Shown here piece by piece: positions 1 through 44,974 of a stretch of DNA of 64,000 nt. A program made the translations under genes and the position numbers. The DNA comes from an uncultured Nitrospirales bacterium (GTDB lineage: Bacteria; Hydrogenedentota; Hydrogenedentia; Hydrogenedentales; GCA-2746185). Within the stretch, counting starts at the first letter, position 1, and every line of letters begins with the position of its first letter. Location of the stretch: positions 522,592 through 586,591 of the forward strand of contig CAZUJL010000001.1 of NCBI GenBank assembly GCA_964620045.1, written 5' to 3'. Under the pieces are notes generated by a model. The model worked only from the letters and a program-made list of their open reading frames with translations, had not been told where the DNA came from and did no database searches.

Positions 1-180
1 GCCGATGAAGTCGATCCGTCCATCTCGAAGTATTAACACGCGCGTGCGCGCGAACGAGCGGGTCTCGCCCGCGCAACGCATGCTGTCTGTTCGCGGCCCC
101 CGCACTGCGCGGGGGTCTTGCTCTATGGCGCCGGGCGTTTTCGGCGCACACAGGCCGTAACTGGAGAGGACTGGCTGACC

Positions 181-2127
181 ATGTCAGCGGGTGGCACATC
201 GCCGGCGGCGCCGGCACCGGGTGGGGGCGGTCGCACGCTCGGCCCGATCTCCGATCTCGAGCGGCACCTGCCTGCCGAGTGGTGGCGGACGCTGTTCAAC
301 GCCGTGTACCTGAAGACCGACGGCGATGTGGTGGAGAACCAACAAAACACGATTCAAGACGTGAGCCGTCTGCTCGAACTCACGGGTCTCTCCCCCAATG
401 CAGAAATTGTGGACCTGTGCTGCGGCCAAGGCCGCCACACGATTGAACTCGGCCGCCGTGGTTTCGCCAAGGTCACCGGCATCGATCGTTCGCGCTACCT
501 CGTGCGCCTTGCGCGGCGGCGTGGGCAAAAACTCGGCCTGCCGGTGAATTTCCGCGAAGGCGACGCGCGCAAGTTCCGGTACGCGCAAGCGTCCGCCGAT
601 TGCGTGACGCTGTTCGGGAATTCCTTTGGCTATTTCGAGCGCACGGAAGACGACGTGGCCGTGCTGGGTGCCGTAAAGCGCATCCTCAAGCCGAAGGGCG
701 TGTTGCTGCTGGATCTGGTCGACGGCGAATGGATGCGCAAGAACTACGAGCCGCGCACCTGGGAGTGGATCGACCAGAACCATTTCGTATGCCGCGAACG
801 CGCCATCGCGTCCGACGGGCACCGCCTGATCTCGCGCGAAGTGGTGACGCATGCGGAAAAAGGCGTCATCGCGGACCAGTTCTACGCCGAGCGCCTCTAC
901 ACCTACGAAGAAATCCGCGCGCTGCTGACGCGCATGGGCTTCACCGACATCCGCCGCGAAAAAGCGCCGAGTTCGCTGTCTGATCGCAATCAGGACCTCG
1001 GCATGATGGCGAACCGCATGTTCATCCTGTGCAAGGCGCCCGCCGCGCCGGCGACGAACGTGCGCCGCGGGCCGTATTTCCCGAAGGTGACCGTGATCTT
1101 CGGCGATCCCGGCCTGCCGGACATGGTGAAGCGGAACGGGCAGTTCAACGAAGAAGACTTCGACACGATCAACCGCCTGCAAAACGCGCTGGGCGAGCTG
1201 ACGGAGTACAGCTTTAGCTACTACAACGACCACGCGGGGCTGATCGATTTTCTGCGCAAGGAACGCCCGCAGTTCGTGCTGAACTTGTGCGACGAGGGCT
1301 ACCAGAACGACGCGTTCAAGGAATTGCATGTGCCGGCGCTCTTCGAGATGTTCGACATCCCTTATTCCGGCGCCGCGCCGGCGTGCCTCGGCCTGTGCTA
1401 CAACAAGTCCTACGTGCGCTCGATCGCGGAGCCGCTGGACATCCCCGTGCCACTGGAAACCTTCCACGGTTCGGACGATCAGGCCGCGACGCTGCCGTCG
1501 ATCTTCCCCGTGCTGCTGAAACCGAACGTCGGCGATTCGAGCCTGGGCATCACGAAGGATTCCGTCGTGAGCAATCAGCAGGAGTTCATGGCGTATTGGG
1601 AGCACTTGCGCGAGACGTTCCCCAACCGCGATATCCTCGTGCAGGAATTCCTCACGGGCCAGGAGTACACCGTCGGCATCATCGGCAACCCCGGCATGCA
1701 GATGACGGTGCTGCCGGTGCTCGAAGTGGATTACTCCGGACTGGATCAGGATCTGCCGCAGATCCTCGGTTATGAATCGAAATGGGAGCCGGATTCGCCG
1801 TACTGGTCCAAGATCAAATACCACCAGGCGAACCTACCGGAGCAGAAGCGCCGCACGCTGGTCGATCGCGCGCAGTTGCTGTTTGAACGGCTCGACTGCC
1901 GCGACTACGCGCGCTTCGATTTCCGCGCGGACGCGAACGGCGAGATAAAATTGTTGGAAGCAAACCCGAACCCCGGTTGGTGCTGGGACGGGAAGATGAA
2001 CATCATGGCGGGCTACGCGGGACTTACGTATACCGACATGATGCGGCTGATTCTGGAAGCGGCGCAGGCGCGGTATTCGCTTGCGTCCGCGGCGGCGCAG
2101 ACCGCACGGGCAGCCATCGCGAGTTAA
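181..2127 (+). CDS. Fusion protein: N-terminal SAM-dependent methyltransferase domain + C-terminal D-Ala-D-Ala-ligase-like ATP-grasp domain
   Basis: ORF 118..2127; start trimmed in-frame to ATG at 181, which has a GGAGAGGA RBS about 13 nt upstream. The N-terminal half has a class-I methyltransferase motif I (VDLCCGQGRHTIELGRRGF). The C-terminal half looks like a Ddl-type ATP-grasp (LLKPNVGDSSLGI..., EFLTGQEYTVGIIGN). Confidence 0.6.
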   Translation: MSAGGTSPAAPAPGGGGRTLGPISDLERHLPAEWWRTLFNAVYLKTDGDVVENQQNTIQDVSRLLELTGLSPNAEIVDLCCGQGRHTIELGRRGFAKVTGIDRSRYLVRLARRRGQKLGLPVNFREGDARKFRYAQASADCVTLFGNSFGYFERTEDDVAVLGAVKRILKPKGVLLLDLVDGEWMRKNYEPRTWEWIDQNHFVCRERAIASDGHRLISREVVTHAEKGVIADQFYAERLYTYEEIRALLTRMGFTDIRREKAPSSLSDRNQDLGMMANRMFILCKAPAAPATNVRRGPYFPKVTVIFGDPGLPDMVKRNGQFNEEDFDTINRLQNALGELTEYSFSYYNDHAGLIDFLRKERPQFVLNLCDEGYQNDAFKELHVPALFEMFDIPYSGAAPACLGLCYNKSYVRSIAEPLDIPVPLETFHGSDDQAATLPSIFPVLLKPNVGDSSLGITKDSVVSNQQEFMAYWEHLRETFPNRDILVQEFLTGQEYTVGIIGNPGMQMTVLPVLEVDYSGLDQDLPQILGYESKWEPDSPYWSKIKYHQANLPEQKRRTLVDRAQLLFERLDCRDYARFDFRADANGEIKLLEANPNPGWCWDGKMNIMAGYAGLTYTDMMRLILEAAQARYSLASAAAQTARAAIAS

Positions 2128-2183: not shown

Positions 2184-4442
2184 ATGACGACGACGTGGAA
2201 AGAAAAACTGGCTTCGAAGATGGAACCCGATCTCGCGCGCGAGATCGAGATTTTCGAGGCGCAGATGGAGCTGCGCAAGCGCGGCGAACTCGACGAGAAG
2301 ATTTTCGCCGAGCAGCGCCTGCGCCGCGGGGCCTATGGCCAGCGGTATGACAACGGCCAGCGGCACGACGGCGTGCAGCAGCAGACGATCAATTTCGGCC
2401 GCGAGTTGACGAAGGGGCCCGAGACCTTCTTCGACGCGCCGGGCATGATGCGCATCAAGATCCCCTTCGGCGGACTCACGGTCGAGCAGCTCGAAGTGAT
2501 GGCCGATATCGCCGAGGAGTACTCGGTGAATAACCTGCACGTGACCACACGGCAGGACATCCAGATGCACTACATCCACATCGAATCGACGCCGGACTTC
2601 ATGCGCCGGCTCGCGGCCGTGGGCATCACCACGCGCGAAGCGTGCGGCAACTCCGTGCGCAACGTGACCGCGTGCCCCTATGCCGGCGTGTGCACGGACG
2701 AGACCTTCGACGTGACGCCGTACGCCAAGGCGCTGATGAAGTTCCTGCTGGGCCACCCGGACACGATGGACTTCGGCCGCAAGTTTAAGCCGGCATTCTC
2801 GGGCTGCGCGCACCATGCCTGCGGCCTCGTGAACATGCACGACTTCGGCGCGGTCGCCAAGGTGAAGGAAATCGACGGGAAGGACGTGCGCGGATTTAGC
2901 GTATACGTCGGCGGCGGCCTCGGCGCCGTGCCGCACGACGCGAAGCTCTTTGATGAGTTCATTCCCGAATACGAACTGCTGCCGACGGTGCAGGCCGTCG
3001 CCCGCGTGTTCGCGCGGCTCGGCGAAAAGAAAAACCGCGCGCGGGCGCGCATCAAGTTCGTGGTCGCGAAACTCGGCATCGAGAAATTCCGCGAGGAAGT
3101 GCTCAAGGAAAAGGCCACGATGCCCTTCGACCCGCGCTGGAAGGGTCTGATCGATCAGCACCGCGACGGCCTGCAGGACCAGCCGCTGCACCCCGGCAAG
3201 GCACTAAACGGCGCGCTGCCGCCGGATGGCTTCTCCGTGTGGCGCGCGACGAATGTATATAAACAGCGCCAGCCGGGTTATGTGGCGGCCGTGATCACGC
3301 TGCCACTCGGCGACTTCTCGTCGTGGCAGGCGCGCAAGCTGGCGGACATCGCGCGCAAGCATTGCGGCGACACCATCCGGGCGACCGTGGACCAGAACCT
3401 GCTCTTCCGTTTCATTCCGGAAGCGAACATCATTGAGTTCTACAAGGACCTCGCGGCCATCGGCCTAAACCAGCCGGGCGCGAAGACGATTGTGGACGTG
3501 ACGGCGTGCCCCGGCACGGACTCGTGCAAGCTGGGCATTTCGTCGAGCCGCGGACTCGCGGCGGAACTGCGCAAGCGGCTGATGCAGAAGAACGCGATGC
3601 TGGACGAGGCGATCGGCAAGCTGCACATCAAGATCAGCGGCTGCTTCAACTCCTGCGGCCAACACCACATCTCCGACATCGGCTTCTACGGCGTGGCCCG
3701 CAGCATCGAGGGGCACTCGGTCCCCCACTTCCAGGTAATCCTCGGCGGGCAGTGGACCGAGAACGCGAAGTCCTACGGCCTCGCGGTCGCGGCGATTCCG
3801 TCGAAGAACATCCCCGATGTGGTCGATCGCGTCACTGCGCGTTACGCGAAAGAGCGCACGCAGGGCGAATCGTTCCAGGCGTACATCAAGCGGCTTGGCA
3901 AGCGTGAGTTGAAGGAAATGTTCGACGACCTCAGCGAAGTGCCGTCGCACGACGTGAACCCCGACATCTATCAGGATTGGGGCGACACGCGCGAGTACAC
4001 GAACGGCGACCGCGGCAAGGGCGAGTGCGCGGGCGAAGTCGTGAGCCTCGTGGACTTCAACCTGGCCGAGTCCGAGCGCGAAGCGTTTGAAGCCTCCGTG
4101 CTGCTCGAGGAAGGCAAATATCCGCAGGCGGACGCGATGGCCTATCAGGCGATGCTGTCGGCCGCGCGCGCGCTGGTGAAGACGCAGTGGCTCGACGTGC
4201 CGGCGGACCCGGACACGGTCGTGAAGGAATTCAGCAAACGCTTCGTGGACACCAAACTGTTCTCGTCGCACCTCGCGGCGGTGAAGTTCCACGAGTACCT
4301 GTTCGTGCGGCACGAGCGCGGCGCGAACGGCGTGAACCAGGAAACCGCGCGGCAGCTCGTCGAAGAATCGCAGCTCTTCATCGAAGCGGCCTTCGATTGC
4401 CAGATGCGCATGCAGAAAACCATCAGCGGAATTAAGGTTTAA
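2184..4442 (+). CDS. Ferredoxin-dependent sulfite/nitrite reductase hemoprotein (siroheme, 4Fe-4S)
   Basis: ORF 2175..4442; ATG at 2184 is preceded by AAAGGTGAG. It has two nitrite/sulfite-reductase ferredoxin-like halves and the Cys clusters that ligate the siroheme-[4Fe-4S] centre (CGNSVRNVTACP; TACPGTDSCKLG ... CFNSCGQHH). Confidence 0.8.
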   Translation: MTTTWKEKLASKMEPDLAREIEIFEAQMELRKRGELDEKIFAEQRLRRGAYGQRYDNGQRHDGVQQQTINFGRELTKGPETFFDAPGMMRIKIPFGGLTVEQLEVMADIAEEYSVNNLHVTTRQDIQMHYIHIESTPDFMRRLAAVGITTREACGNSVRNVTACPYAGVCTDETFDVTPYAKALMKFLLGHPDTMDFGRKFKPAFSGCAHHACGLVNMHDFGAVAKVKEIDGKDVRGFSVYVGGGLGAVPHDAKLFDEFIPEYELLPTVQAVARVFARLGEKKNRARARIKFVVAKLGIEKFREEVLKEKATMPFDPRWKGLIDQHRDGLQDQPLHPGKALNGALPPDGFSVWRATNVYKQRQPGYVAAVITLPLGDFSSWQARKLADIARKHCGDTIRATVDQNLLFRFIPEANIIEFYKDLAAIGLNQPGAKTIVDVTACPGTDSCKLGISSSRGLAAELRKRLMQKNAMLDEAIGKLHIKISGCFNSCGQHHISDIGFYGVARSIEGHSVPHFQVILGGQWTENAKSYGLAVAAIPSKNIPDVVDRVTARYAKERTQGESFQAYIKRLGKRELKEMFDDLSEVPSHDVNPDIYQDWGDTREYTNGDRGKGECAGEVVSLVDFNLAESEREAFEASVLLEEGKYPQADAMAYQAMLSAARALVKTQWLDVPADPDTVVKEFSKRFVDTKLFSSHLAAVKFHEYLFVRHERGANGVNQETARQLVEESQLFIEAAFDCQMRMQKTISGIKV

Positions 4443-4444
4443 TC

Positions 4445-5014
4445 ATGAACGACTTGAAACAATTCGACATTCGGATCACTTCGAAGACCTGGCAAGGCGT
4501 GGACACCGAGGCCTTCATGGGCGTGCTGCAGCGCTGGATTCAGCAGCGTGCAATTCCCGGCGTGCTCATCGACGTCGCGGACTACGGCCACATCCACCAC
4601 GGCCACGGCACGATTTTGGTCGGCCACGAGTACAACTTCAGCGTGGATTACGCGGACGGTACGCTGTCCGTGCTGGTGCGCACGAAACGTCCGGCCGAAG
4701 CGACACTCGCGGCGCGGATTGAAAACGCGCTGCGCCTGGCGCTGAAGGGGTGTCGCTTGCTCGAACAGGAACCGGAGTTCTCGGGCAAACTGACCTTCGA
4801 TCCGTCGACGTTTACCTTCGTGGCGAACGACCGCCTGCTCGCGCCGAACACCGACGCGACCTACGCCGCATTGAAGCCGGCCATCGAAGCGGCGGCCAAG
4901 GCCGTGCTGGGCGGAGGCTCGGTTGAGCTTGTGAAAAACGACCCCCGGGAGCGGATGACAGCCCGCGTTACGGCCGGAAAACCGGTGGCGCTGGCGGTCC
5001 TGGTCGGGGTGTAA
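4445..5014 (+). CDS. Hypothetical protein (189 aa), His-rich motif, coupled to the sulfite reductase
   Basis: ATG at 4445, 2 nt after the sir stop (TAATCATG). Contains HIHHGHGTILVGHEY, which could be a metal-binding site. I recognise no family. Confidence 0.5.
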   Translation: MNDLKQFDIRITSKTWQGVDTEAFMGVLQRWIQQRAIPGVLIDVADYGHIHHGHGTILVGHEYNFSVDYADGTLSVLVRTKRPAEATLAARIENALRLALKGCRLLEQEPEFSGKLTFDPSTFTFVANDRLLAPNTDATYAALKPAIEAAAKAVLGGGSVELVKNDPRERMTARVTAGKPVALAVLVGV

Positions 5015-5095
5015 ACGCCGGGCGGAAAGCTATTGCACCGCCCGGTGCGCATGTGTTACCTTGTATACGCACGTACATTTGAAGCCTCGCAAGTT

Positions 5096-5222
5096 GCTTA
5101 TCAAGAGCGGTGGAGGGACTGGCCCTGTGAAACCGCGGCAACCACGGCTTTTTCTTCGGAAAAAGACGAAGGTGCTAACTCCGACCCACCCCGTATACGC
5201 GGGGGTGCGGGAGAGATAAGTG
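5096..5222 (+). promoter_or_regulatory. SAM-I (S-box) riboswitch
   Basis: The sequence matches the S-box consensus. P1 is gCTTATCAAGAG ... AGATAAGt. The core reads GGTGGAGGGACTGGCCCtgtGAAaCCgcGGCAACC ... GGTGCTAAcTCC. There is an extended P4 insertion. Confidence 0.8.
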
Positions 5223-5250
5223 GCAGACCGCTGATACGTATAGCGTTGTT

Positions 5251-5290
5251 CGCCTCGCATCCCTCCCTGGGTTGCGAGGCGTTTTTGTTT
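5251..5290 (+). terminator. Rho-independent terminator, the expression platform of the SAM riboswitch
   Basis: Hairpin cgcctcgca-tccctccctgggt-tgcgaggcg followed by tttttgtttt, 37 nt upstream of the next start codon. Confidence 0.7.
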
Positions 5291-5326
5291 TAGCCCCCAA
5301 CGGGGCGTTGGAAAGGCTGCAACGCA

Positions 5327-6628
5327 ATGGCGGCAGGCAAGCGGTATTTCACTGCACTGAAGGGTCGCGAGAGCGGCAAAGAATACTCGCCGGACGAAGT
5401 GCGGTACGTGTGCGAATTCGACTTCGGCCCGCTGGAAGTCAAATACGACTACGAAGCGATTGCGCGCGATCTGACCAAGGACGTCATCCAGTCCCGCCGC
5501 CCGAGCATGTGGCGTTACAAAGAATTACTACCGATCGAAGGCGAGCCGACCGTGGGCGCGCAGGCGGGCTTCACGCCGCTCGTAAAAGCGGACCGTCTCG
5601 CGAAGCGTCTCGGCGTGACCGGCGAGCTGTACGTGAAGAATGACAGCGTGTGTTACCCGACGCTCTCGTTCAAAGACCGCGTGGTCAGCGTCGCGCTCTC
5701 GCGCTCGAAAGAATTTGGATATAAGACCGTGGCCTGCGCGAGCACGGGCAACCTGGCCAACTCCGTCGCGGCGAATGCGGCGGCCGCCGGCCTCGAATGC
5801 TTCGTGTTCATCCCGCACGACCTCGAACCGGGCAAGGTGCTGGGTTCGCAGGTGTTCGGCGCGAACGTGATTCGCATCGACGGGCCTTACGACAAAGTGA
5901 ACCGCCTGTGCAGCGAAGTGGCGGACAAATACAAGTGGGCGTTTGCGAATGTGAACATGCGCCCGTACTACGCCGAAGGCAGCAAGACGATGGGCTTCGA
6001 GATCGCCGAGCAGCTTGGCTGGCGCCTGCCGGATCAGGTGGTCGTGCCGATGGCGAGCGGCTCGCTCATGTGCAAAATCGAAAAGGCCTTCAACGAGTTC
6101 AAGAAACTGAAGTTCGTCGAAGACCATCACGTGAAAATTTACGGCGGCCAGGCGGAAGGCTGTTCGCCGATTACCGAGGCCGTGAAGAAGGGCATCGACC
6201 TGATTAAGCCGGTGGAGAAGCCGGACACGATCGTGAAGTCGCTGGCGATCGGCAACCCGGCGGACGGCTTCTACGCCGCGCGCTGCATTCAAGATTCCGG
6301 CGGCTACAGCGAGAACCCGACGGACGCGGAAACGGTCGAGGGCATCCGCCTGTTGGCCGAGTGCGAAGGCATCTTCGCGGAGACGGCGGGCGGCGTGACC
6401 GTGGCCGCGGCGAAGCGCTTGTTCGAATCGGGCAAGCTCGATCGCAAGGGCTGTACGGTCATCTGCGTGACGGGCAATGGCCTGAAGACGAAAGAGTGCC
6501 TGGACGGGCAGTTCAAGACGCTCGACGCGATCGCGCCGAACCTCGGCGCGTTTGATACGCTGTACGACTCGTTGGGTTCGACCGGTCCCGCGGCGCGCGC
6601 GCCGAAGGCCGTGGCGGCGTTGGCTTAA
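5327..6628 (+). CDS. Threonine-synthase-like PLP-dependent enzyme (fold type II); candidate homocysteine-forming MetM-type enzyme
   Basis: PLP lysine motif SFKDRVVSVALSRSKEFGYKTVACASTGNLANSVAANAA. GAAAGG RBS. Sits downstream of the SAM-I riboswitch and upstream of the sulfur-carrier gene. Confidence 0.75.
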   Translation: MAAGKRYFTALKGRESGKEYSPDEVRYVCEFDFGPLEVKYDYEAIARDLTKDVIQSRRPSMWRYKELLPIEGEPTVGAQAGFTPLVKADRLAKRLGVTGELYVKNDSVCYPTLSFKDRVVSVALSRSKEFGYKTVACASTGNLANSVAANAAAAGLECFVFIPHDLEPGKVLGSQVFGANVIRIDGPYDKVNRLCSEVADKYKWAFANVNMRPYYAEGSKTMGFEIAEQLGWRLPDQVVVPMASGSLMCKIEKAFNEFKKLKFVEDHHVKIYGGQAEGCSPITEAVKKGIDLIKPVEKPDTIVKSLAIGNPADGFYAARCIQDSGGYSENPTDAETVEGIRLLAECEGIFAETAGGVTVAAAKRLFESGKLDRKGCTVICVTGNGLKTKECLDGQFKTLDAIAPNLGAFDTLYDSLGSTGPAARAPKAVAALA

Positions 6629-6678
6629 TTTTGTTGGGTGACACCGCCGGGAGGGCGGTGACGAAAGGATGCAAAAAC

Positions 6679-6957
6679 ATGGCTGTGAAGGTCCTGATTC
6701 CGACGCCGTTGCGCAACCTGACCGGCGGCAATGAGACGGTCGAAGCGAATGGCAAAACCATCGCGGAGATTTTTGTCGACCTCGAGCGCCGGCACCCCGG
6801 CATCCGCGAGCGCCTGTGCGACGACAAGGGCGAAATCCGCCGCTTCGTGAACGTCTATCACAATCAGGAAGACATCCGCTTCAAGGACGGCAAGCAAACG
6901 GCCGTGGCGGATGGCGACGACGTATCGATTGTGCCCGCAATTGCGGGTGGCTGCTGA
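6679..6957 (+). CDS. MoaD/ThiS/CysO-family sulfur-carrier protein (beta-grasp), C-terminus ...AGG-C
   Basis: ORF 6631..6957 trimmed to MAVKVLIP, which has AAAGGAT upstream. About 92 aa. Ends AIAGGC*, i.e. Gly-Gly plus one removable residue, like CysO/HcyS-type carriers. Confidence 0.6.
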   Translation: MAVKVLIPTPLRNLTGGNETVEANGKTIAEIFVDLERRHPGIRERLCDDKGEIRRFVNVYHNQEDIRFKDGKQTAVADGDDVSIVPAIAGGC

Positions 6958-6972
6958 GCGCGACCCATCCGC

Positions 6973-8631
6973 GTGATGCGCGCCGGAATGGATAGCCTCC
7001 GGCGCGCGGTCCGGCCGCTGGCGTGGGTGCTGGTGCCCGGAATTTTCTGGGTCATCTCGTGGAGCGAGTACCGCCTCCCCACGCTGCTCTTCCTTCCAGT
7101 TTTTCTCTTCTTCTCGGCGCCAATGCTCGCGGCGCTTCTTGCGCTGCACGTGGCGATGTTCGTGTTGGTCGCGTTTGCGCCTATACCGCGGCCGCCGGAT
7201 CTTTTGCTCGCGGTCAGCGCGATCCTGGGCCTGTGGTTTGGCCTGCGCGGCCAGCTTTTCACGGCGGGCCGGTTCGTCGCGCGCAGGGCCGGCTCCATAC
7301 GCGTCTTCGCGCTTTGCGCAGCGATAGTGTTGCCGCTCGTCGCACTCTTCCGAGGATTCCCGTGGTTCGCGTATCTGCTGCTCGGCGTGGGTTATTTCGC
7401 GCTGTATCGATTCCTGAAACCCTATGCGCCTGCTGCCGCGAAATCGCGTCGCGCGTTGGTCGTCAACATAACTTTGGCCGTTGTCGCCACTGCGTTCAGT
7501 CTCGGCGTGCTCGAACTCGGCGCGCGTTACCTCATTAAACTGCCGCCACCCAAACCGAATCTGGAAAACATGATGGTGGCGGACCCGAAGGCGCTGTGGG
7601 CGCCGCGTCCGAATTTCGAAATGGAAATGTCGTACCCCACGCCGACCGGCGAGCGCGTTCCGTTTAGGCTGCACCACTCGTCGCAAGGCCTGCGCGGCGA
7701 CGAAGTGCCGCCCAAGCAGCCGGGTGAATTTCGCGTGCTGATGCTGGGCGATTCGTTCACCTACGGCTGGAACGTGAGCCAGGGCGAGGATGTGCCGTCG
7801 CAATTGCAGGCGACCCTGCGTGCGGCGCACCCCGATCGCACAATCACGGTGATCAACCTCGGCGTACCGGCGTACGCGCCGTGGCAGGAACTCGAACTGC
7901 TCAAGGAACGCGGGCTCGCGTTCGCTCCGGATATAGTGATCCTGCAGCTTTTTCCGGCGAACGACATCACGGAGAGCCTGACGAAGTTTGGTCGCACATT
8001 GCCCACCTTTGGCCAGTGGGAAACGCACAAGATGTATCGGTGGAGGCAACAGCAGGATCGCGCGTATCGGCTGGAACGATGGCTACGCGCGCACAGCGCG
8101 GCGTACAACGTGTTTCGCGAATCAAACCACGGTGGACGCGGAATACCGGGCATGGTGTACCGCTTCCGCTTCACGCGCGGCACGGGCGCGATCAATGTCG
8201 ACACGGGCGCGGCGCGGACCTATTGGCTGGAAGCGCTGCGCACGGAGTGGTACCCCGAACTCACGGAATCGTGGACGGAATGCCAGAAGGATGTCGTCGC
8301 GATCGCCGATACCTGTAAGGCGAGCAACATAAAATTTCTCGCGTATGCGATCCCGCTCAATATCTTTTCCGATGCGGTGTGGCAATCCGCTTTTGATGAG
8401 TCGTCGCGCAAGGCCGGCGAATCGATCCCGTATGAGGCCTACAAGGACACGCGGCTCGCGCAAGAATTCCTGGAGGCGAACCAGTTGCCGTGGATGCCCT
8501 TGCTGGAACCGCTACAAGCCACCGGAAAACCCGACGCGTACTTCATCGCCGGGGACGGTCACCTCAATGCTGAGGGGTGCCGGTTGGTGGCGCGGTTGCT
8601 GGCGGAGCAGCTGGAATCGCAGGAGCTGTAG
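6973..8631 (+). CDS. Membrane-anchored SGNH/GDSL hydrolase (N-terminal ~6 TM helices + periplasmic SGNH domain)
   Basis: Hydrophobic N-terminal 190 aa. SGNH block I FRVLMLGDSFTYGW. Block V AGDGHLNAEG (D-x-x-H). Paralogous to 10604..11983. Confidence 0.7.
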   Translation: MMRAGMDSLRRAVRPLAWVLVPGIFWVISWSEYRLPTLLFLPVFLFFSAPMLAALLALHVAMFVLVAFAPIPRPPDLLLAVSAILGLWFGLRGQLFTAGRFVARRAGSIRVFALCAAIVLPLVALFRGFPWFAYLLLGVGYFALYRFLKPYAPAAAKSRRALVVNITLAVVATAFSLGVLELGARYLIKLPPPKPNLENMMVADPKALWAPRPNFEMEMSYPTPTGERVPFRLHHSSQGLRGDEVPPKQPGEFRVLMLGDSFTYGWNVSQGEDVPSQLQATLRAAHPDRTITVINLGVPAYAPWQELELLKERGLAFAPDIVILQLFPANDITESLTKFGRTLPTFGQWETHKMYRWRQQQDRAYRLERWLRAHSAAYNVFRESNHGGRGIPGMVYRFRFTRGTGAINVDTGAARTYWLEALRTEWYPELTESWTECQKDVVAIADTCKASNIKFLAYAIPLNIFSDAVWQSAFDESSRKAGESIPYEAYKDTRLAQEFLEANQLPWMPLLEPLQATGKPDAYFIAGDGHLNAEGCRLVARLLAEQLESQEL

Positions 8632-10534
8632 GCGCCAGATAACCTAGCGCTTCCAACTGCTGGCGCTGTTCAACGGTGAGACCGGCATCCGACGTATCCG
8701 TCGGCGGCGCGTGCGGCCATTCTTCGATGCGCTTGAAGTTCATGCGGCGCAGCGTCGGCGCTTCGAACCGCGCCTTGGTGCCTGGCGCGAGCGTGATGAC
8801 CAGCCGCGCCGTGTCCTTCAGCGGCACGATGGTGGCGGCAAGCGATTGATCCGCGCCGGGTTTCGCGCAGACGTGCTCCCAAATATCCAGCGCGCGGCCC
8901 GTGCCCGGCCAGCGATACTCGGCGGGCGCCAGCGACATATAAATCCGGCCGGTTTCGAGTGTGTATTTCATTTCCAGAAACAACGGCTCGTAGGGCGTGA
9001 GGCCCTCGGCCGTGTACGCCAGTTCCGAAACCGGTATCTCCACCTGCCAGCCGCCGTCGCCGGTCTGCGCAAGGGTTGAGGACGCGCTATCGGAAGTGGC
9101 GGATTTCAATACATTATCGCCGAGCAACGCGCGCTCATCACCGCCGCGAATATTTTCCGGCGTGTACTCTGCCCAGCGTGGATTGAACGCGCGCAGCCGC
9201 GCATTGAGATCATCGGCAATCGCGGTTTGCGTCCCGAGCAGATCCGTAAGGCCTTTGGTGTCCTCGCGATACTTGTACAGATTCTCTTCGTATGGCCACG
9301 CGTGCCACGGCTGGTGCTGGCTGCGATTGCCGACGAGCATGTACCAGTAGTCGCCGGAAATCAGCGCGGCATTGGCGCCATTCTGCAGCGCGCTCTCGGA
9401 GTACACGTCGTGTGGCGTCACCGCGCCGCCCGCGATCGCGGACATCAGGCTTGTGCCGCGCAGGCCTTCCGGCGGGGCGATTTCGAAGAGGTCCATAAAC
9501 GTCGGATAAAGGTCCATCAGGCTCACCGGCTCGCCGTGGTGCGCGGGCTTCAGGCCGGCGTAGTTCACAATCAGCGGCACATGGATTTCCGTCGGGCGCA
9601 GCGCGGCGAAGTGGCCCCACCATTGGTGTTCAAACATTGCTTCGCCGTGATCGGCGCTGATGATGAGCAGGTCCCGGCGCGGGTCCCAGTCGAGCGCCTT
9701 CAACAATTCCGGCAGTTGCGTGTCCGTGTATCGAATCGCGCCGTCGTAAAGTCCCGTCAAGAACTCGATGTCCGCCGGGCCGAGGTTGTGCAACTGGCTC
9801 CAGAAGGGATACAGGCTGCGCGCGTGCAGGCGGCGCGTTTCGATGTACGCGTCGCCCTCGACGACGGCGCTGCCTTCGTAGGGCTTCGTGAACATTGTGC
9901 CGTAGGGGTACGGCGGGCGATACGGGTTGTGCACGTCCATCGTGTGAATATAAATAAATTCGCGCTGCTTGGGTTCCCGTTTGTAGTTCGCGCGCAGGTC
10001 GGCGGTGACCTCGTCGATGCTCGCAAGAATTTTTCCCGGCGTCGAGATGATGCGGAAGTCCGAGAAGCCCTGTGCATAGCCGCGGTCGTGCCGCAGCGCG
10101 TAGTTGGCCGAATAGCCGCGGCACACCACGCCCGCGCCGCTGAGCGCCTCCGCGAGCGTAACGATGTCGTCTGGAATGATGTTGACGTTGGGATTGCCGC
10201 CGAGTTGTGTAAAGGGGCGTCCGGTGAAATAACCCGCCACAGAGTGCAGCGTCGCGTGAGACGGCGAGATCGCCCAGTCGAAGGTCGCGGACTGTTGTAC
10301 GAGGTTGTCCATCCAGGGCGAGGTGTCGCGTTCGTAGCCCCAGGCGCCCATGTGATCCGCGCGAAGGGAATCCACGGCGATCCAGATCACGCGCTTGGGC
10401 GGGCCGCCGCGCAGGTGGGTGGCCGAATCCCGCGAGCAGGTGGAGGCCAGCGCGGCGACGGCCAGCAGCGCGGCAATGCGTGCAAGACCACGGAGGCGAT
10501 GGCCGAAGGACGCGCGCAACTTCATTTCCTCCAC
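8564..10534 (-). CDS. Secreted sulfatase-family (alkaline-phosphatase superfamily) hydrolase/transferase, non-canonical active site
   Basis: Signal peptide, then IWIAVDSLRADHMGAWGYERDTSPWMDNL. The position of the C/S-x-P-x-R formylglycine motif reads AISPSHATLHSVAGYFTG, so the motif is absent. Pro/Ala-rich C-terminal tail. The 3' end overlaps the convergent SGNH gene by ~68 nt. Confidence 0.65.
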   Translation of the reverse strand: MEEMKLRASFGHRLRGLARIAALLAVAALASTCSRDSATHLRGGPPKRVIWIAVDSLRADHMGAWGYERDTSPWMDNLVQQSATFDWAISPSHATLHSVAGYFTGRPFTQLGGNPNVNIIPDDIVTLAEALSGAGVVCRGYSANYALRHDRGYAQGFSDFRIISTPGKILASIDEVTADLRANYKREPKQREFIYIHTMDVHNPYRPPYPYGTMFTKPYEGSAVVEGDAYIETRRLHARSLYPFWSQLHNLGPADIEFLTGLYDGAIRYTDTQLPELLKALDWDPRRDLLIISADHGEAMFEHQWWGHFAALRPTEIHVPLIVNYAGLKPAHHGEPVSLMDLYPTFMDLFEIAPPEGLRGTSLMSAIAGGAVTPHDVYSESALQNGANAALISGDYWYMLVGNRSQHQPWHAWPYEENLYKYREDTKGLTDLLGTQTAIADDLNARLRAFNPRWAEYTPENIRGGDERALLGDNVLKSATSDSASSTLAQTGDGGWQVEIPVSELAYTAEGLTPYEPLFLEMKYTLETGRIYMSLAPAEYRWPGTGRALDIWEHVCAKPGADQSLAATIVPLKDTARLVITLAPGTKARFEAPTLRRMNFKRIEEWPHAPPTDTSDAGLTVEQRQQLEALGYLAPTAPAIPAAPPATAPPTGTPQH

Positions 10535-35667: not shown

Positions 35668-37455
35668 CTACTTCCCATTCGCCCGATTCGCCTGCAGTAC
35701 GCAGCGGAATCCCACCGTGGTGAGTTGGGCTTCGCGGAAGAGGCCTTTGCGGGCGCAGCAGCGGAGTTCGGGGGGCTGGGAGTGCCAAGAGCCGCCGCGG
35801 ACTACGCGGCGCGGTTCGCTGGGGACGTCGGTGTCGCCTCCCGTGCCGGGGTCGTAGGGCACGAAGGCGCCCGTGGTCCATTCGAACACGTTGCCGGCGA
35901 GATCGAAGACGCCGTCGGGCGTGGCGCCGGAGTCGTGCATGGTGACAATCGACGGCATGCCGAGGTAGTCGCCGTAGTTGCAGACGGCCGTGTCGGGTTC
36001 GAGCGTGCCCCAGGGATATTTGCGGCTGTCCTTGCCGCGCGCGGCGAATTCCCACTGGCGCTCGTTGGGAATTGCCTTGCCGCACCACTGCGCGTAGGCC
36101 TGGGCGTCGTCGAAGGTAACACCGACGACGGGCTGGCGCGGACCGTTCAGCTCAGGGTCGCGCCAATATTTCGGCTCGGCGTGGCCGGTGGCCTTTATGA
36201 ACGCGCCGTATTGGTCGTTCGTCACCGGGTACTTGTCGATGTAGAACGGCTCAATGCGCGTTTCGAATTCAGGCGCTTCCTCGCGGAAGTCGTTGCAGCC
36301 CATGAAAAAGCTGCCGCCGGGCAACAGGACCATGTTCTCCGTGGACACCTGCTTGCCGGACTGCGTCTGCACAGAGACGCCTTCGCGGGCCTTGTATGAC
36401 TTTTTGTAGGCGGTGCCGAGCGCGTCGCGGAACTCGCGCGCGGATTGCCAGCGGCGCTCGCGCTCCTTAAGCAACGCGCGGTCGAGCACCTCGACGACGG
36501 AGGGCGAGACATCCTGTCGCACTTCGAGCACGGTGACCGGGTCGTCAATCGGCGTGCGCAGCGTGAGCAACTCGTGCAGGATCAGGCCCATGCTGTAAAT
36601 ATCGGAGCGGAAATCGATCGGCAGGTGGCGGTGCTGCTCGGGCGAGGCGTACACCGCCGTACCCACGATGCGTTTGGGCTTCGGCTGCCCCGGCTGCAGG
36701 ACTTCCTGCTCGTCTTCCACGGCGACCGCGAGACCGAAGTCGAGCACCTTCGCGCGGTCGCCCGGCAGCAACATGATGTTTTCCGGCTTCAAGTCGCGGT
36801 GAACCACCATGCGGTGGGCGTAGTCGAGCGCGGAGAGCGACTGCAGCGTAAGGTCGATGGCGAGGTGCGCGTCCATCAGGCGGCGCTCGGCCCGGTGTTT
36901 CTTGAGGTACGCGCGCAGCGAGGCGCCCTTGAGCAGCTCCATCGTCAGGTACAGGATACCGTCGGGCGTGGTGCTCACGTCGTGGACGGACACGATATTC
37001 TCGTGGCGCAGGCGGCGCGCGATCTGGGCCTCTTTAATGAAAAGCTGCTGGCCACGCTGGGTGGCGAGCGCGCGGGGGTGCATGAACTTCAGCGCGACTT
37101 CTTCGTCGATCAGCGCGTCGTGCGCTTTATATACAACACCCATGCCGCCTTTGCCGATCTTGGCGTCGATAATGTACCGGTCGGCGATGCGGGTGCCGCT
37201 CTCGAAATTGAGGGCCTGTTCGGCGGGGCGCTGCTCGGTGGTGGGCACGCGGACGGCCGCGCCACAGCCGAAACACAGGCCGGGCCGCCCCTGGACCGTG
37301 TCCGGGACGATGATGCGAAGTCCGCAGCTCCCGCACGTGACATGGATCATCGGTGGTTTTCCCGCCCCAAGGAATCTGTCGGGAATCGTAGCACTGGTGC
37401 GCCGATCCGGCAAAATAGGACAGCGTTTCACCATTGACAAAGGCCTGATCGCCAC
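35668..37455 (-). CDS. Ser/Thr protein kinase fused to a C-terminal formylglycine-generating-enzyme (FGE-sulfatase) domain, with an N-terminal zinc ribbon
   Basis: CGSCG ... CFGCG ribbon. Kinase subdomains I–XI (GKGGMGVVYKA, HRDLKPEN, DFG). C-terminal RVVRGGSWHS ... FGE-type domain. Confidence 0.8.
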   Translation of the reverse strand: MAIRPLSMVKRCPILPDRRTSATIPDRFLGAGKPPMIHVTCGSCGLRIIVPDTVQGRPGLCFGCGAAVRVPTTEQRPAEQALNFESGTRIADRYIIDAKIGKGGMGVVYKAHDALIDEEVALKFMHPRALATQRGQQLFIKEAQIARRLRHENIVSVHDVSTTPDGILYLTMELLKGASLRAYLKKHRAERRLMDAHLAIDLTLQSLSALDYAHRMVVHRDLKPENIMLLPGDRAKVLDFGLAVAVEDEQEVLQPGQPKPKRIVGTAVYASPEQHRHLPIDFRSDIYSMGLILHELLTLRTPIDDPVTVLEVRQDVSPSVVEVLDRALLKERERRWQSAREFRDALGTAYKKSYKAREGVSVQTQSGKQVSTENMVLLPGGSFFMGCNDFREEAPEFETRIEPFYIDKYPVTNDQYGAFIKATGHAEPKYWRDPELNGPRQPVVGVTFDDAQAYAQWCGKAIPNERQWEFAARGKDSRKYPWGTLEPDTAVCNYGDYLGMPSIVTMHDSGATPDGVFDLAGNVFEWTTGAFVPYDPGTGGDTDVPSEPRRVVRGGSWHSQPPELRCCARKGLFREAQLTTVGFRCVLQANRANGK

Positions 37456-40625: not shown

Positions 40626-40672
40626 GTTGGCGCGACCGGGGATTGGGGCTGACTCCCGGCGGAGATGCCGCC

Positions 40673-40942
40673 ATGACGATTGATGACGTCCTGTTTTTGG
40701 GACGCGACGCGATGATTGTGACGCTGCTCGTGTCCGCGCCCATGCTTCTGTCGGGGCTCGTGGTCGGCCTGATCATCAGCGTGTTCCAGTCGGTCACACA
40801 GATTCAGGAAATCACGCTGACCTTCGTGCCGAAAATCATCGTGGTGTTCGCCGCGTTCGTCATTTTCCTGCCGTGGATGAGCGAGACTCTGCTCGGATTC
40901 GTGGTGCCGTTGCTGGGGAACGCACACGAGTGGGCGCGCTAA
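40673..40942 (+). CDS. fliQ: Flagellar export apparatus protein FliQ
   Basis: MTIDDVLFLGRDAMIVTLLVSAPMLLSGLVVGLIISVFQSVTQIQEITLTFVPKI, a classic FliQ/SctS. The TTG-extended ORF was trimmed. Confidence 0.85.
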   Translation: MTIDDVLFLGRDAMIVTLLVSAPMLLSGLVVGLIISVFQSVTQIQEITLTFVPKIIVVFAAFVIFLPWMSETLLGFVVPLLGNAHEWAR

Positions 40943-40945
40943 CGA

Positions 40946-41716: not shown

Positions 41717-41719
41717 GCA

Positions 41720-42814: not shown

Positions 42815-42830
42815 GAGGACGTAAACGAAG

Positions 42831-44909: not shown

Positions 44910-44974
44910 CGCGGGCGAGGTACACCGGAACCCGAATAGGCTATTATAGGAGCCACGGGGGGAACCTCCAGGCC

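What the first reader, a model, noticed from the sequence alone, without database searches (positions are those of the whole stretch)
5096..6957. SAM-I riboswitch controls a threonine-synthase-like enzyme plus a GG-Cys sulfur-carrier protein, suggesting a protein-thiocarboxylate route to homocysteine
A textbook S-box sits exactly upstream of a two-gene unit (ThrC-like PLP enzyme, then a MoaD/ThiS-type carrier) and directly downstream of a sulfite-reductase operon. The S-box has P1 CTTATCAAGAG/AGATAAG, a GGTGGAGGGACTGGCCC core and its own terminator. SAM control implies a role in Met biosynthesis, not Thr. The arrangement matches the recently described ThrC-like/sulfur-carrier (MetM/MetO-type) chemistry, in which a carrier-protein thiocarboxylate donates sulfide to O-phosphohomoserine, and the CysM/CysO and HcyS/MetY systems. 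This would be an unannotated methionine-sulfur route in a PVC-type genome.
Basis: partly seen in the sequence, partly recalled or inferred. Interest (0 to 1): 0.7.

Follow-up and report, generated by a model that had tools for sequence, protein, structure and literature searches.

The report
SAM-riboswitch-controlled MetM/MetO homocysteine operon
A SAM-sensing RNA switch controls a two-gene unit (a threonine-synthase look-alike plus a small sulfur-carrier protein) that most likely makes the methionine precursor homocysteine; the pathway was first shown in Streptomyces in 2024, so this is a correct reading of a known kind of system that databases still mislabel, not a new one.

Summary
Rfam's SAM-I model hits window 5095-5222 at 78.7 bits (gathering score 44.4). 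A strong terminator follows, then a 433-aa ThrC-family PLP enzyme and a 92-aa CysO-like carrier ending in GG-Cys.

The layout S-box, ThrC-like gene, carrier recurs in 76 of 77 testable related loci from Hydrogenedentota, Verrucomicrobiota and Planctomycetota. It also occurs in the actinomycete Nonomuraea, which additionally has a canonical ThrC elsewhere. The clade carries invariant motifs (STGNL, SFKDRVV, RPYYAEGSK) that differ from crystallised ThrC.

The order there is cysM-like, JAMM peptidase, CysO-like carrier fused to a MoeZ-type E1/rhodanese, then the sulfite-reductase genes.

This matches the MetM/MetO/Mec/MoeZ route (Hasebe et al. 2024; included in GapMind 2026), so it is a new member of a known kind. 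Local peculiarities are the GG-Cys cap (near relatives end in a free GG), the carrier-E1 fusion and a degenerate zinc ribbon. I could not obtain the S. albulus MetM sequence, and the enzyme's activity is untested.

The parts
1..36 (+). Last 36 nt of a 490-aa gene. It encodes a CysO-like carrier domain (ends VPAVAGG at residue 91) fused to a MoeZ-type ThiF adenylyltransferase and a rhodanese domain. The rest of the gene lies upstream of the window (L081 3238-4710), preceded by a JAMM peptidase (L081 2787-3218) and a cysM-like gene (L081 1826-2785).
   Evidence: L081 is identical to the window over window 1-300, and the riboswitch leader (5095-5296) and carrier gene match exactly. Gene calls. 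NCBIfam: MoeZ PRK07878 524.9 bits, MoeB PRK07411 569.8 bits, SAMP1-like N-terminal domain. Sequence. The JAMM motif HSHx7SxxD is intact. cysM TIGR01138 339 bits.
181..2127 (+). Intervening gene: a fusion of a SAM-dependent methyltransferase and an ATP-grasp (D-Ala-D-Ala-ligase-like) domain. No role in the pathway is assigned.
   Evidence: Pfam Methyltransf_25 and Dala_Dala_lig_C. Among the 80 related loci it is found only in L001 (87% identity).
2184..4442 (+). NirA/Sir-type sirohaem-[4Fe-4S] reductase, the probable assimilatory sulfite reductase that supplies sulfide. About 170 C-terminal residues match no family.
   Evidence: Pfam NIR_SIR and NIR_SIR_ferr, two copies each. NCBIfam NirA family 267.6 bits, below its cutoff. 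Also found upstream of the ThrC-like gene in L001 (86% identity) and L008 (55%). The HMMs do not separate sulfite from nitrite reductase.
4445..5014 (+). Conserved 189-aa protein of unknown family, encoded directly after the reductase gene.
   Evidence: No Pfam or NCBIfam hit, even at E<=1. Found next to the reductase in L001 (72% identity) and L008 (32%).
5095..5222 (+). SAM-I (S-box) riboswitch aptamer.
   Evidence: RF00162 at 78.7 bits against a gathering score of 44.4. My own covariance model scores it 120.6 bits. Covariation across 77 homologous copies.
5251..5291 (+). Intrinsic terminator of the expression platform: hairpin 5251-5281 plus U-tract 5282-5291. This makes the riboswitch a transcriptional OFF switch.
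   Evidence: RNAfold of 5236-5296 gives -25.8 kcal/mol. The hairpin is also present in the minimum-energy fold of the whole leader, alongside aptamer helices P2-P4.
5327..6628 (+). MetM-like enzyme: a ThrC-family, fold-type-II PLP enzyme of 433 aa, with the PLP-binding lysine K116 in the SFKDR motif. Predicted to be an O-phosphohomoserine- and carrier-thiocarboxylate-dependent homocysteine synthase.
   Evidence: Clade motifs STGNL, SFKDRVV and RPYYAEGSK are invariant or nearly so in about 320 homologues. 51.7% identical to the S-box-linked Nonomuraea paralogue and 35-36% identical to crystallised ThrC.
6679..6957 (+). MetO-like sulfur-carrier protein: a CysO-type beta-grasp protein of 92 aa whose C-terminus is Gly-Gly-Cys.
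   Evidence: Pfam ThiS 63.7 bits. Best PDB hits are CysO of M. tuberculosis (3dwg_C) and of Amycolatopsis (4n6e_B), E about 8e-25. 48% identical to the Nonomuraea carrier. The GGC ending is shared by 5 distinct sequences in its 90% cluster.

Best explanation
Window 5095-6957 is a metM-metO-type operon under a SAM-I riboswitch.

Regulation: when SAM is plentiful, the aptamer folds and the downstream terminator stops transcription. When SAM is scarce, the two genes are transcribed.

Chemistry (inferred by analogy):
1. The 92-aa carrier is made with a C-terminal Gly-Gly-Cys.
2. The JAMM peptidase encoded about 2 kb upstream of the window start removes the Cys and exposes Gly-Gly.
3. The MoeZ-type E1/rhodanese adenylates that terminus and converts it to a thiocarboxylate. 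The sulfur comes from sulfide made by the neighbouring sulfite reductase.
4. The ThrC-like PLP enzyme eliminates phosphate from O-phosphohomoserine and adds the carrier's thiocarboxylate sulfur at C-gamma.
5. Homocysteine is released, probably by JAMM hydrolysis of a carrier-homocysteine adduct. This step is modelled on CysM/CysO/Mec and on my recollection of HcyS/MetY/HcyD.
6. A cysM-like gene and a second CysO-like carrier, fused to the E1, sit in the same cluster. The island would therefore make both cysteine and homocysteine through protein thiocarboxylates.

What is shown: the RNA element, the terminator, the protein families, the gene order and their conservation. What is inferred: substrates, the sulfur-transfer steps and the peptidase's roles.
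For: - Riboswitch: the S-box is confirmed by Rfam and by covariation, and the terminator by folding.
- Conserved linkage: the S-box lies directly upstream of the ThrC-like gene in 11 of 12 loci by Rfam and in 76 of 80 by covariance model, with 3 of the 4 misses being truncated contigs. A carrier homologue follows the gene in 75 of 80 loci.
- Same layout in an actinomycete: Nonomuraea has the same triad, and a canonical ThrC exists elsewhere in that replicon.
- Carrier identity: closest to CysO.
- Distinct enzyme clade: motif substitutions relative to crystallised ThrC.
- Accessory genes: cysM-like, JAMM and carrier-MoeZ-rhodanese genes lie on the same contig directly upstream, and the same cluster occurs in a Planctomycetota MAG, L008.
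- Literature: MetM/MetO is described with OPH, a thiocarboxylated carrier, Mec and MoeZ (GapMind 2026 preprint 10.1101/2024.10.14.618325). metM of S. albulus has an upstream SAM riboswitch (PMC12172450). The CysM/CysO/Mec/MoeZR mechanism is described in PMC3227635. B. subtilis ThrC is 33% identical to MetM (preprint 10.64898/2026.09.15.751699), against 36% for the window protein versus B. subtilis ThrC.
Against: - No biochemical evidence exists for this protein or for any PVC or Hydrogenedentota homologue.
- The S. albulus MetM sequence could not be obtained, so orthology to the characterised enzyme is indirect.
- The protein passes the NCBIfam thrC equivalog cutoff.
- The Microcystis MetM homologue was reported to act as a threonine synthase and deaminase in vitro, without raising methionine levels (PMC12172450).
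- The rest of this genome could not be searched for a canonical thrC, for thrB or for other homocysteine routes.
- Only 1 of the 80 related loci (L008) shows JAMM and E1 genes within the 6-kb flanks.
- I did not find a convincing antiterminator helix.
Confidence: 0.8

Rival explanations
1. The enzyme is a genuine, possibly bifunctional, threonine synthase placed under SAM control to balance use of O-phosphohomoserine between the Thr and Met branches. The carrier gene would be a functionally unrelated passenger.
For: - TIGR00260 thrC scores 265.7 bits, above its 167.1 cutoff.
- The best PDB hits are all threonine synthases.
- The Microcystis MetM homologue showed threonine synthase and deaminase activity in vitro (PMC12172450).
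- I could not check whether this genome has another thrC.
Against: - A SAM-OFF switch on a threonine synthase would cut Thr synthesis when Met is plentiful. From my own knowledge, that is the opposite of the known logic in plants, where SAM activates ThrC.
- The carrier is co-located in 75 of 80 loci.
- Motifs that are conserved in crystallised ThrC are replaced throughout the clade.
- Nonomuraea has a separate canonical ThrC.
- The more specific NCBIfam ThrC model PRK08197 scores below its cutoff (283.4 against 303).
Confidence: 0.08
2. The pair makes a different sulfur compound under SAM control. One option is cysteine from O-phosphoserine, in a CysM/CysO-like reaction carried out by a ThrC-fold enzyme. 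Another is a thio-metabolite other than homocysteine.
For: - The carrier is most similar to CysO.
- SAM riboswitches also control cysteine and transsulfuration genes in some bacteria (my own knowledge).
- Substrate specificity was not tested.
Against: - A dedicated cysM-like gene with its own CysO-like carrier domain is already present in the cluster and is not under the S-box. The S-box was the only Rfam hit on L081.
- ThrC-family enzymes act on O-phosphohomoserine.
- The published homologous system yields homocysteine.
- No secondary-metabolite genes were identified in the neighbouring ORFs that were scanned.
Confidence: 0.07
3. The carrier works in molybdopterin or thiamin biosynthesis (as MoaD or ThiS), and the ThrC-like enzyme uses free sulfide or no sulfur at all.
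For: - Some database members of the carrier's cluster are labelled 'molybdopterin synthase sulfur carrier subunit'.
- It hits NCBIfam moaD_arch at 44.1 bits, below the 49.5 cutoff.
Against: - No moaE, thiG, thiF or thiH gene is nearby.
- PDB similarity to CysO (E about 8e-25) is far stronger than to MoaD proteins (E 4e-9 or weaker).
- SAM control and the fixed pairing with the ThrC-like gene across phyla would be left unexplained.
Confidence: 0.03

Closest known systems
MetM/MetO O-phosphohomoserine route to homocysteine in Streptomyces albulus (Hasebe et al. 2024, Appl Environ Microbiol 90:e01247-24), with Mec and MoeZ as listed in GapMind 2026
   Same: - A ThrC-homologous PLP enzyme is encoded next to a small ThiS/MoaD-type carrier.
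- A SAM riboswitch lies upstream (reported for S. albulus in PMC12172450).
- The route depends on a JAMM/Mec peptidase and a MoeZ E1. Both genes are present in this cluster.
- An actinomycete (Nonomuraea) has the identical layout with a protein 51.7% identical to the window's.
   Different: - The host is a Hydrogenedentota-like uncultured bacterium, not an actinomycete.
- Here the operon sits inside one island with sulfite reductase, cysM, JAMM and E1.
- The E1 carries its own fused CysO-like domain.
- The window enzyme has lost 3 of the 4 N-terminal zinc-ribbon cysteines that the actinobacterial and many other homologues keep.
- Identity to the characterised S. albulus proteins is unmeasured.
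CysM/CysO/Mec+/MoeZR cysteine pathway of Mycobacterium tuberculosis
   Same: - The carrier is a close CysO homologue (E 7.8e-25 to 3dwg_C).
- It would be thiocarboxylated by a MoeZ-type E1 with a rhodanese domain.
- The acceptor is a phosphorylated amino acid bound to a fold-type-II PLP enzyme.
- A JAMM hydrolase releases the product from the carrier (PMC3227635).
- A full cysM-JAMM-carrier/E1 set sits just upstream.
   Different: - The riboswitch-controlled enzyme has the ThrC fold, not the CysK/CysM fold, and should act on O-phosphohomoserine to give homocysteine.
- The carrier is encoded with a terminal Cys, which makes it the genetic equivalent of the CysO-cysteine adduct that Mec+ cleaves.
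HcyS/MetY/HcyD/HcyF protein-thiocarboxylate methionine pathway of Wolinella succinogenes (Krishnamoorthy and Begley 2011; cited in PMC5764234; mechanistic details from my own knowledge)
   Same: - Homocysteine sulfur comes from a carrier-protein thiocarboxylate.
- The carrier is made with an extra residue after Gly-Gly, which a JAMM peptidase must remove.
- A sulfite reductase gene lies in the neighbourhood.
   Different: - The Wolinella PLP enzyme is MetY, a fold-type-I O-acetylhomoserine sulfhydrylase, and its substrate is O-acetylhomoserine.
- No ThrC-like enzyme and no S-box is reported for that system.
Canonical threonine synthase ThrC (e.g. B. subtilis 6cgq, Aquifex 2zsj, Thermus 1uim, M. 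tuberculosis 2d1f)
   Same: - Same fold and the same PLP-lysine motif (SFKDR).
- Presumably the same substrate, O-phosphohomoserine.
- phmmer E-values of 3e-51 to 8e-44.
   Different: - Only 35-36% identity.
- About 60 extra N-terminal residues forming a zinc-ribbon-type domain.
- Invariant substitutions: STGNT to STGNL, FKDRG(M) to FKDRVV, NPYRxEGQK to RPYYAEGSK, GNAGN to A(S/G)GS.
- SAM-riboswitch control and an obligate carrier-gene partner.

Membership tests
SAM-I (S-box) riboswitch, Rfam RF00162 | Scores above the family's curated gathering threshold over the full covariance model (four-way junction P1-P4 with the conserved core) | tested here: met
   78.7 bits against 44.4, model positions 1-108 of 108, E 7.6e-17.
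SAM-I (S-box) riboswitch, Rfam RF00162 | Helices supported by covariation among homologues | tested here: met
   Across 77 copies, 97% of cells are paired (39-53% in slid controls) and 11 pairs change on both sides. No shuffle out of 500 reached the observed covariation score. The alignment was fitted to the model, so the counts lean towards it.
SAM-I (S-box) riboswitch, Rfam RF00162 | An expression platform that can turn genes off (intrinsic terminator) upstream of a Met/Cys/SAM-related gene | tested here: met
   Hairpin 5251-5281 plus U-tract 5282-5291, 36 nt before the ATG at 5327. No antiterminator was convincingly identified.
SAM-I (S-box) riboswitch, Rfam RF00162 | Binds SAM and terminates transcription in response | not testable with these tools
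   Needs in-line probing or a transcription-termination assay.
MetM (MetO-thiocarboxylate-dependent homocysteine synthase) | ThrC-homologous fold-type-II PLP enzyme with the catalytic lysine | tested here: met
   PALP 1.4e-68 and thrC HMM hits. K116 in SFKDR aligns with the ThrC PLP-lysine motif.
MetM (MetO-thiocarboxylate-dependent homocysteine synthase) | Encoded next to a small ThiS/MoaD-type carrier gene (metO) | tested here: met
   The carrier ORF starts 50 nt after the stop codon. The pairing is conserved in 75 of 80 related loci and in Nonomuraea.
MetM (MetO-thiocarboxylate-dependent homocysteine synthase) | SAM riboswitch upstream of metM (reported for S. albulus) | tested here: met
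   The literature statement is in PMC12172450.
MetM (MetO-thiocarboxylate-dependent homocysteine synthase) | Closer in sequence to the characterised S. albulus MetM than to true ThrC | not testable with these tools
   The paper and the sequence are not held, and a search seeded with the Nonomuraea protein returned only Streptosporangiales. Proxies: 51.7% identity to the S-box-linked Nonomuraea paralogue against 35-36% to ThrC structures, and a published 33% identity between MetM and B. subtilis ThrC.
MetM (MetO-thiocarboxylate-dependent homocysteine synthase) | Accessory Mec (JAMM) hydrolase and MoeZ E1 present in the genome | tested here: met
   Both are on the same contig 2-4.7 kb upstream of the window start.
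MetM (MetO-thiocarboxylate-dependent homocysteine synthase) | Converts O-phosphohomoserine plus MetO-COSH to homocysteine | not testable with these tools
   Needs an enzyme assay or genetic complementation.
CysO/MetO-type sulfur-carrier protein | Beta-grasp ThiS/MoaD fold with strong similarity to CysO | tested here: met
   Pfam ThiS 63.7 bits. E 7.7e-25 and 7.8e-25 to the 4n6e_B and 3dwg_C CysO chains, aligned end to end.
CysO/MetO-type sulfur-carrier protein | Free C-terminal Gly-Gly available for adenylation and thiocarboxylation | tested here: not met
   It ends Gly-Gly-Cys, whereas 70 of 72 related carriers end in a free GG. The protein therefore needs C-terminal processing, and a JAMM peptidase gene is in the cluster. 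The cap is stable in 5 distinct sequences.
Canonical threonine synthase (ThrC, EC 4.2.3.1) | Matches ThrC equivalog HMMs above their cutoffs | tested here: inconclusive
   TIGR00260 passes (265.7 against 167.1), but the best-matching model PRK08197 fails (283.4 against 303), as do four other ThrC models.
Canonical threonine synthase (ThrC, EC 4.2.3.1) | Keeps the motifs conserved in the two crystallised ThrC sequences aligned here (STGNT, FKDRG, NPYRxEGQK, GNAGN) | tested here: not met
   They are replaced by STGNL, FKDRVV, RPYYAEGSK and A(S/G)GS. The first three replacements are invariant or nearly so in about 320 clade members. That these positions line the phosphate and PLP sites is my recollection of ThrC structures and was not tested here.

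The most novel reading that the evidence does not exclude
In this lineage both sulfur amino acids may be made only through protein thiocarboxylates, using carriers that are synthesised as inactive pro-forms. One CysO-like domain is fused to the N-terminus of its own E1. The free MetO is capped with a genetically encoded Cys, which makes it chemically the same as the CysO-cysteine product adduct. A single JAMM peptidase would then mature both carriers and release product on every turnover, so it would gate all sulfur flow into Cys and Met. The SAM riboswitch would control only the Met branch.
Probability: 0.3. Interest if true: 0.45.

Novelty: new member of a known kind. Interest (0 to 1): 0.3.

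Why it matters
The value is mainly in annotation and metabolic reconstruction.

- Mislabelled genes: among the roughly 320 homologues collected here, from Hydrogenedentota, Verrucomicrobiota, Planctomycetota and Actinomycetota, those that carry a database name are called 'threonine synthase'. Named members of the window carrier's cluster are called 'molybdopterin synthase sulfur carrier subunit'.
- Consequence: recognising these as SAM-regulated MetM/MetO units fills the homocysteine step in methionine biosynthesis for many uncultured bacteria. It also avoids false predictions of methionine auxotrophy.
- Distribution: the near-universal S-box linkage (76 of 77 loci) is independent comparative support that the 2024 Streptomyces pathway is widespread.
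- Test material: this locus puts sulfite reductase, cysM, JAMM, a carrier-E1 fusion and metM-metO(GGC) on one contig. That makes it a compact set for reconstituting the whole thiocarboxylate-dependent sulfur assimilation route.

Tried and rejected
- Primary papers: I tried to read Hasebe et al. 2024 (PMC11497804), Krishnamoorthy and Begley 2011 (PMC3089676) and O'Leary et al. 2008 (PMC2647513). None is held, so I relied on papers that cite them.
- S. albulus MetM sequence: a search seeded with the Nonomuraea homologue returned 120 Streptosporangiales proteins and no Streptomyces.
- Literature search for CysO/JAMM/HcyS/HcyD found nothing.
- Terminator scan: the consensus promoter/terminator scan found neither a promoter nor the riboswitch terminator. 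RNAfold did find the terminator.
- Antiterminator: only a weak alternative pairing appeared (5200-5212 with 5260-5269). It does not disrupt the 9-bp lower stem, so I claim no antiterminator.
- E1, JAMM and other Met/Thr genes inside the window: none found in the ORFs scanned with Pfam. They lie just upstream of the window instead.
- Organism name: the cluster look-up gave no name.
- The 189-aa protein and the reductase's C-terminal extension: Pfam at E<=1 gave no credible family.
- GG-Cys as an assembly error: rejected. Three independent assemblies call a 92-aa product, and five diverged sequences share the ending.
Full report
**1. Observation**

Rfam's SAM-I model (RF00162) matches window 5095-5222 on the + strand over the whole model. 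The score is 78.7 bits against a gathering score of 44.4 (E 7.6e-17), and it is the only Rfam hit in the 64 kb window.

Downstream, RNAfold predicts a hairpin at 5251-5281. It has a 9-bp CGCCUCGCA/UGCGAGGCG lower stem and a 3-bp upper stem, and is followed by UUUUUGUUUU at 5282-5291. The hairpin coexists with aptamer helices P2-P4 in the minimum-energy fold of the whole leader. The simple consensus scan missed it. I found no convincing antiterminator.

The ATG at 5327 opens a 433-aa ORF that hits PALP at 1.4e-68 and TIGR00260 thrC at 265.7 bits. A 92-aa ORF follows at 6679-6957, hits Pfam ThiS at 63.7 bits and ends ...VPAIAGGC. Upstream lie a NirA/Sir-type sirohaem reductase and a 189-aa protein with no family.

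**2. What the proteins are**

- *Carrier.* Its best solved relatives are the CysO proteins of Amycolatopsis (4n6e_B) and M. tuberculosis (3dwg_C), both at E about 8e-25 and aligned end to end. MoaD and SAMP proteins match far more weakly.
- *Enzyme.* It matches only threonine synthases in the PDB (E 3e-51 to 6e-29), and those matches cover roughly residues 60-390. The first 60 or so residues form an extra N-terminal domain.
- *Motif differences.* In an alignment with two crystallised ThrCs and eleven homologues, the enzyme keeps the PLP-lysine motif (SFKDR, K116). It differs at several motifs that are conserved in ThrC: STGNL for STGNT, FKDRVV for FKDRG(M), RPYYAEGSK for NPYRxEGQK, and A(S/G)GS for GNAGN. 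The first three replacements are invariant or nearly so across about 320 homologues from four phyla.
- *Caveat.* From memory of ThrC structures, these positions line the phosphate and PLP pockets.

**3. Comparative genomics**

- A scan of reference genomes gave 80 loci with homologues at 62-90% identity. Most are Verrucomicrobiota, with some Planctomycetota and Hydrogenedentota, and the closest (L001, 90%) is a Hydrogenedentales MAG.
- A carrier homologue follows the ThrC-like gene in 75 of 80 loci.
- Rfam finds an S-box directly upstream in 11 of 12 loci tested.
- A covariance model built from those copies finds exactly one S-box per locus, always on the same strand just upstream of the gene, in 76 of 80 loci. 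Three of the four misses (L004, L005, L061) are contigs cut at or within 16 nt of the gene start. The only real exception is a KSB1 MAG (L011).
- Across the 77 copies, 97% of base-pair cells are paired, against 39-53% in slid controls, and 11 pairs show compensatory changes.
- The actinomycete Nonomuraea gerenzanensis has the same triad: an S-box at 68.7 bits, a ThrC-like gene 51.7% identical to the window's, and a 91-aa carrier ending in AGG. The same 11.85-Mb replicon also holds a canonical ThrC that is 56.5% identical to B. subtilis ThrC. In that genome, then, the riboswitch-linked gene is an additional paralogue alongside a canonical ThrC.

**4. The missing E1 and JAMM**

An exact look-up of the enzyme found Logan contig SRR13076514_556 (L081). 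It is identical to the window over window 1-300, and the riboswitch leader and carrier gene match exactly. The contig extends 4.7 kb beyond the window's left edge, where it encodes three genes in order:
- a cysM-like PLP enzyme (TIGR01138, 339 bits);
- a 143-aa JAMM protein with an intact HSHx7SxxD motif;
- a 490-aa protein whose first 91 residues are a CysO-like domain ending VPAVAGG, followed by a MoeZ-type ThiF domain and a rhodanese domain.

The last 36 nt of that third gene are window 1-36. The fused carrier domain is 43% identical to the free carrier. A Planctomycetota MAG (L008) has the same set, including the carrier-E1 fusion, directly upstream of its S-box-metM-metO unit. Apart from the reductase, no other Met, Thr or sulfur-assimilation gene turned up among the window ORFs scanned.

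**5. The GG-Cys terminus**

- Seventy of 72 related carriers end in a free Gly-Gly; one ends GGR and one GGSAN.
- At the DNA level the window reads GGC-TGC-TGA where its closest relatives read GG(C/G)-TGA. That fits a 3-nt duplication.
- It is not an assembly error. Three independent assemblies call a 92-aa product, and five diverged sequences in the carrier's 90% cluster share GGC. The sister lineage ends GG, and one member ends GGCSR.
- A carrier-Gly-Gly-Cys is chemically the CysO-cysteine adduct that Mec+ hydrolyses in M. tuberculosis (PMC3227635). The neighbouring JAMM is therefore the obvious maturase.

**6. Mechanism**

*Shown:* the riboswitch, the terminator, the families, the gene order and their conservation.

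*Inferred by homology and from the literature:*
- SAM binding terminates transcription.
- At low SAM the enzyme and carrier are made.
- JAMM removes the terminal Cys.
- The MoeZ-type E1/rhodanese thiocarboxylates the Gly-Gly end, using sulfide from the sulfite reductase.
- The ThrC-like enzyme performs a gamma-replacement on O-phosphohomoserine with the thiocarboxylate.
- Homocysteine is released, probably through JAMM hydrolysis of an adduct.

The regulatory logic fits methionine, not threonine. Repressing a true ThrC when SAM is high would be the opposite of the plant arrangement, where SAM activates ThrC (my own knowledge).

**7. Comparison with what is known**

This is the MetM/MetO pathway described in Streptomyces albulus by Hasebe et al. 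2024. The GapMind 2026 preprint lists its steps as MetO, Mec, MoeZ and MetM, and notes that MetM is 'often misannotated' as threonine synthase. PMC12172450 states that S. albulus metM has an upstream SAM riboswitch.

I could not obtain the S. albulus sequences, so membership rests on architecture, accessory genes, clade motifs and an actinobacterial proxy. The system also resembles CysM/CysO/Mec/MoeZR, which uses the same carrier family, and the Wolinella HcyS/MetY/HcyD pathway, which uses a capped carrier but a different PLP fold.

**8. Verdict**

The finding is a new member of a known kind.

Local peculiarities:
- the GG-Cys cap;
- the carrier-E1 fusion;
- loss of three of the four zinc-ribbon cysteines (GSCD pattern in 10 of 120 close homologues, against CCCC or CCCD elsewhere);
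- co-location of the Cys and Met thiocarboxylate branches with the sulfite reductase.

Remaining doubts:
- there is no biochemistry for this clade;
- an in vitro report describes threonine synthase and deaminase activity for the Microcystis homologue;
- the rest of the genome could not be inspected.

The 'PVC-type genome' label is not established. The window does hold planctomycete-type PSCyt/PSD1/DUF1501 genes, but the nearest relatives are labelled Hydrogenedentota.

Noticed in passing
L081 3238-4710 (last 36 nt = window 1-36); also L008 3076-4554: The MoeZ-type E1/rhodanese carries an N-terminal CysO-like carrier domain with an internal ...VPAVAGG junction. The carrier would have to be cut off by a peptidase before it could be thiocarboxylated. 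The fusion is conserved in a Planctomycetota MAG, and in both loci a JAMM gene sits immediately upstream.
   Followed up: partly
window 4445-5014: A 189-aa protein with no Pfam or NCBIfam match, even at E<=1, is encoded directly after the sulfite-reductase gene. It keeps that position in L001 (72% identity) and L008 (32%), so it may be an unrecognised partner of the reductase.
   Followed up: partly
window 3900-4442 (C-terminal ~170 residues of the reductase ORF 2184-4442): The NirA/Sir-type reductase is about 750 aa long, roughly 170 residues longer than the region covered by the NIR_SIR domains. The C-terminal extension matches no family; the only hits are sub-threshold HEPN/PaREP1 noise.
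   Followed up: partly
window 181-2127: A fusion of a SAM-dependent methyltransferase and an ATP-grasp (D-Ala-D-Ala-ligase-like) domain lies between the E1 gene and the sulfite reductase. Among the 80 related loci it is found only in the closest relative, L001. Its function and any link to sulfur metabolism are unknown.
   Followed up: no
window 5327-5460 (N-terminal ~45 residues of the ThrC-like protein): The N-terminal CxxC...CxxC zinc ribbon is intact in the actinobacterial homologues and in about half of the others. In the window protein and its closest relatives it has degenerated to G..S...C..D. Many Verrucomicrobia have C..C...C..D.
   Followed up: partly
L012, L015, L029, L047, L051, L053, L063, L078 (two intact copies); L060 (first copy lacks the GG end): In eight Verrucomicrobia loci, two tandem carrier paralogues follow the ThrC-like gene. 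The first ends ...PA(F/Y)AGG and is 38-48% identical to the window carrier. The second ends ...PAIAGG and is 54-58% identical. Both have a free Gly-Gly. In L060 the first copy runs on past the GG position.
   Followed up: partly
L008 4551-4898 and 4938-5570: In the Planctomycetota MAG, a thioredoxin and a 1-Cys peroxiredoxin lie between the carrier-E1 gene and the S-box. This recalls the link to oxidative stress reported for the mycobacterial CysO pathway.
   Followed up: no
window 6976-8631 and 6984-7013: A GDSL/SGNH-like ORF starts 19 nt after the carrier's stop codon but is absent from all 80 related loci. A 10-bp GC-rich hairpin (GCGCGCCGGA...TCCGGCGCGC) without a U-tract lies at its 5' end. 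It is unclear whether this gene is co-transcribed under the riboswitch.
   Followed up: no
window 35668-37455 (-): A Ser/Thr protein kinase domain is fused to an FGE-sulfatase (formylglycine-generating-enzyme-like) domain. A sulfatase gene lies elsewhere in the window at 8564-10534 (-).
   Followed up: no
window 40643-47207: A flagellar export gene block: FliQ-, FliR-, FlhB- and FlhA-like proteins, an SRP54-type FlhF-like GTPase and a MinD/ParA-like ATPase. This implies a motile organism.
   Followed up: no
L002, L004-L006, L054, L055, L060, L064, L070: The record titles of several MAGs carrying near-identical or clearly verrucomicrobial loci name unrelated taxa (Rhodothermaeota, Nitrospirales, Klebsiella, Chitinophaga pinensis). 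These look like binning or labelling errors in the public records.
   Followed up: no
L011 (KSB1 MAG): This is the only related locus with adequate upstream sequence (345 nt) that has no S-box. A carrier homologue is still present downstream.
   Followed up: no
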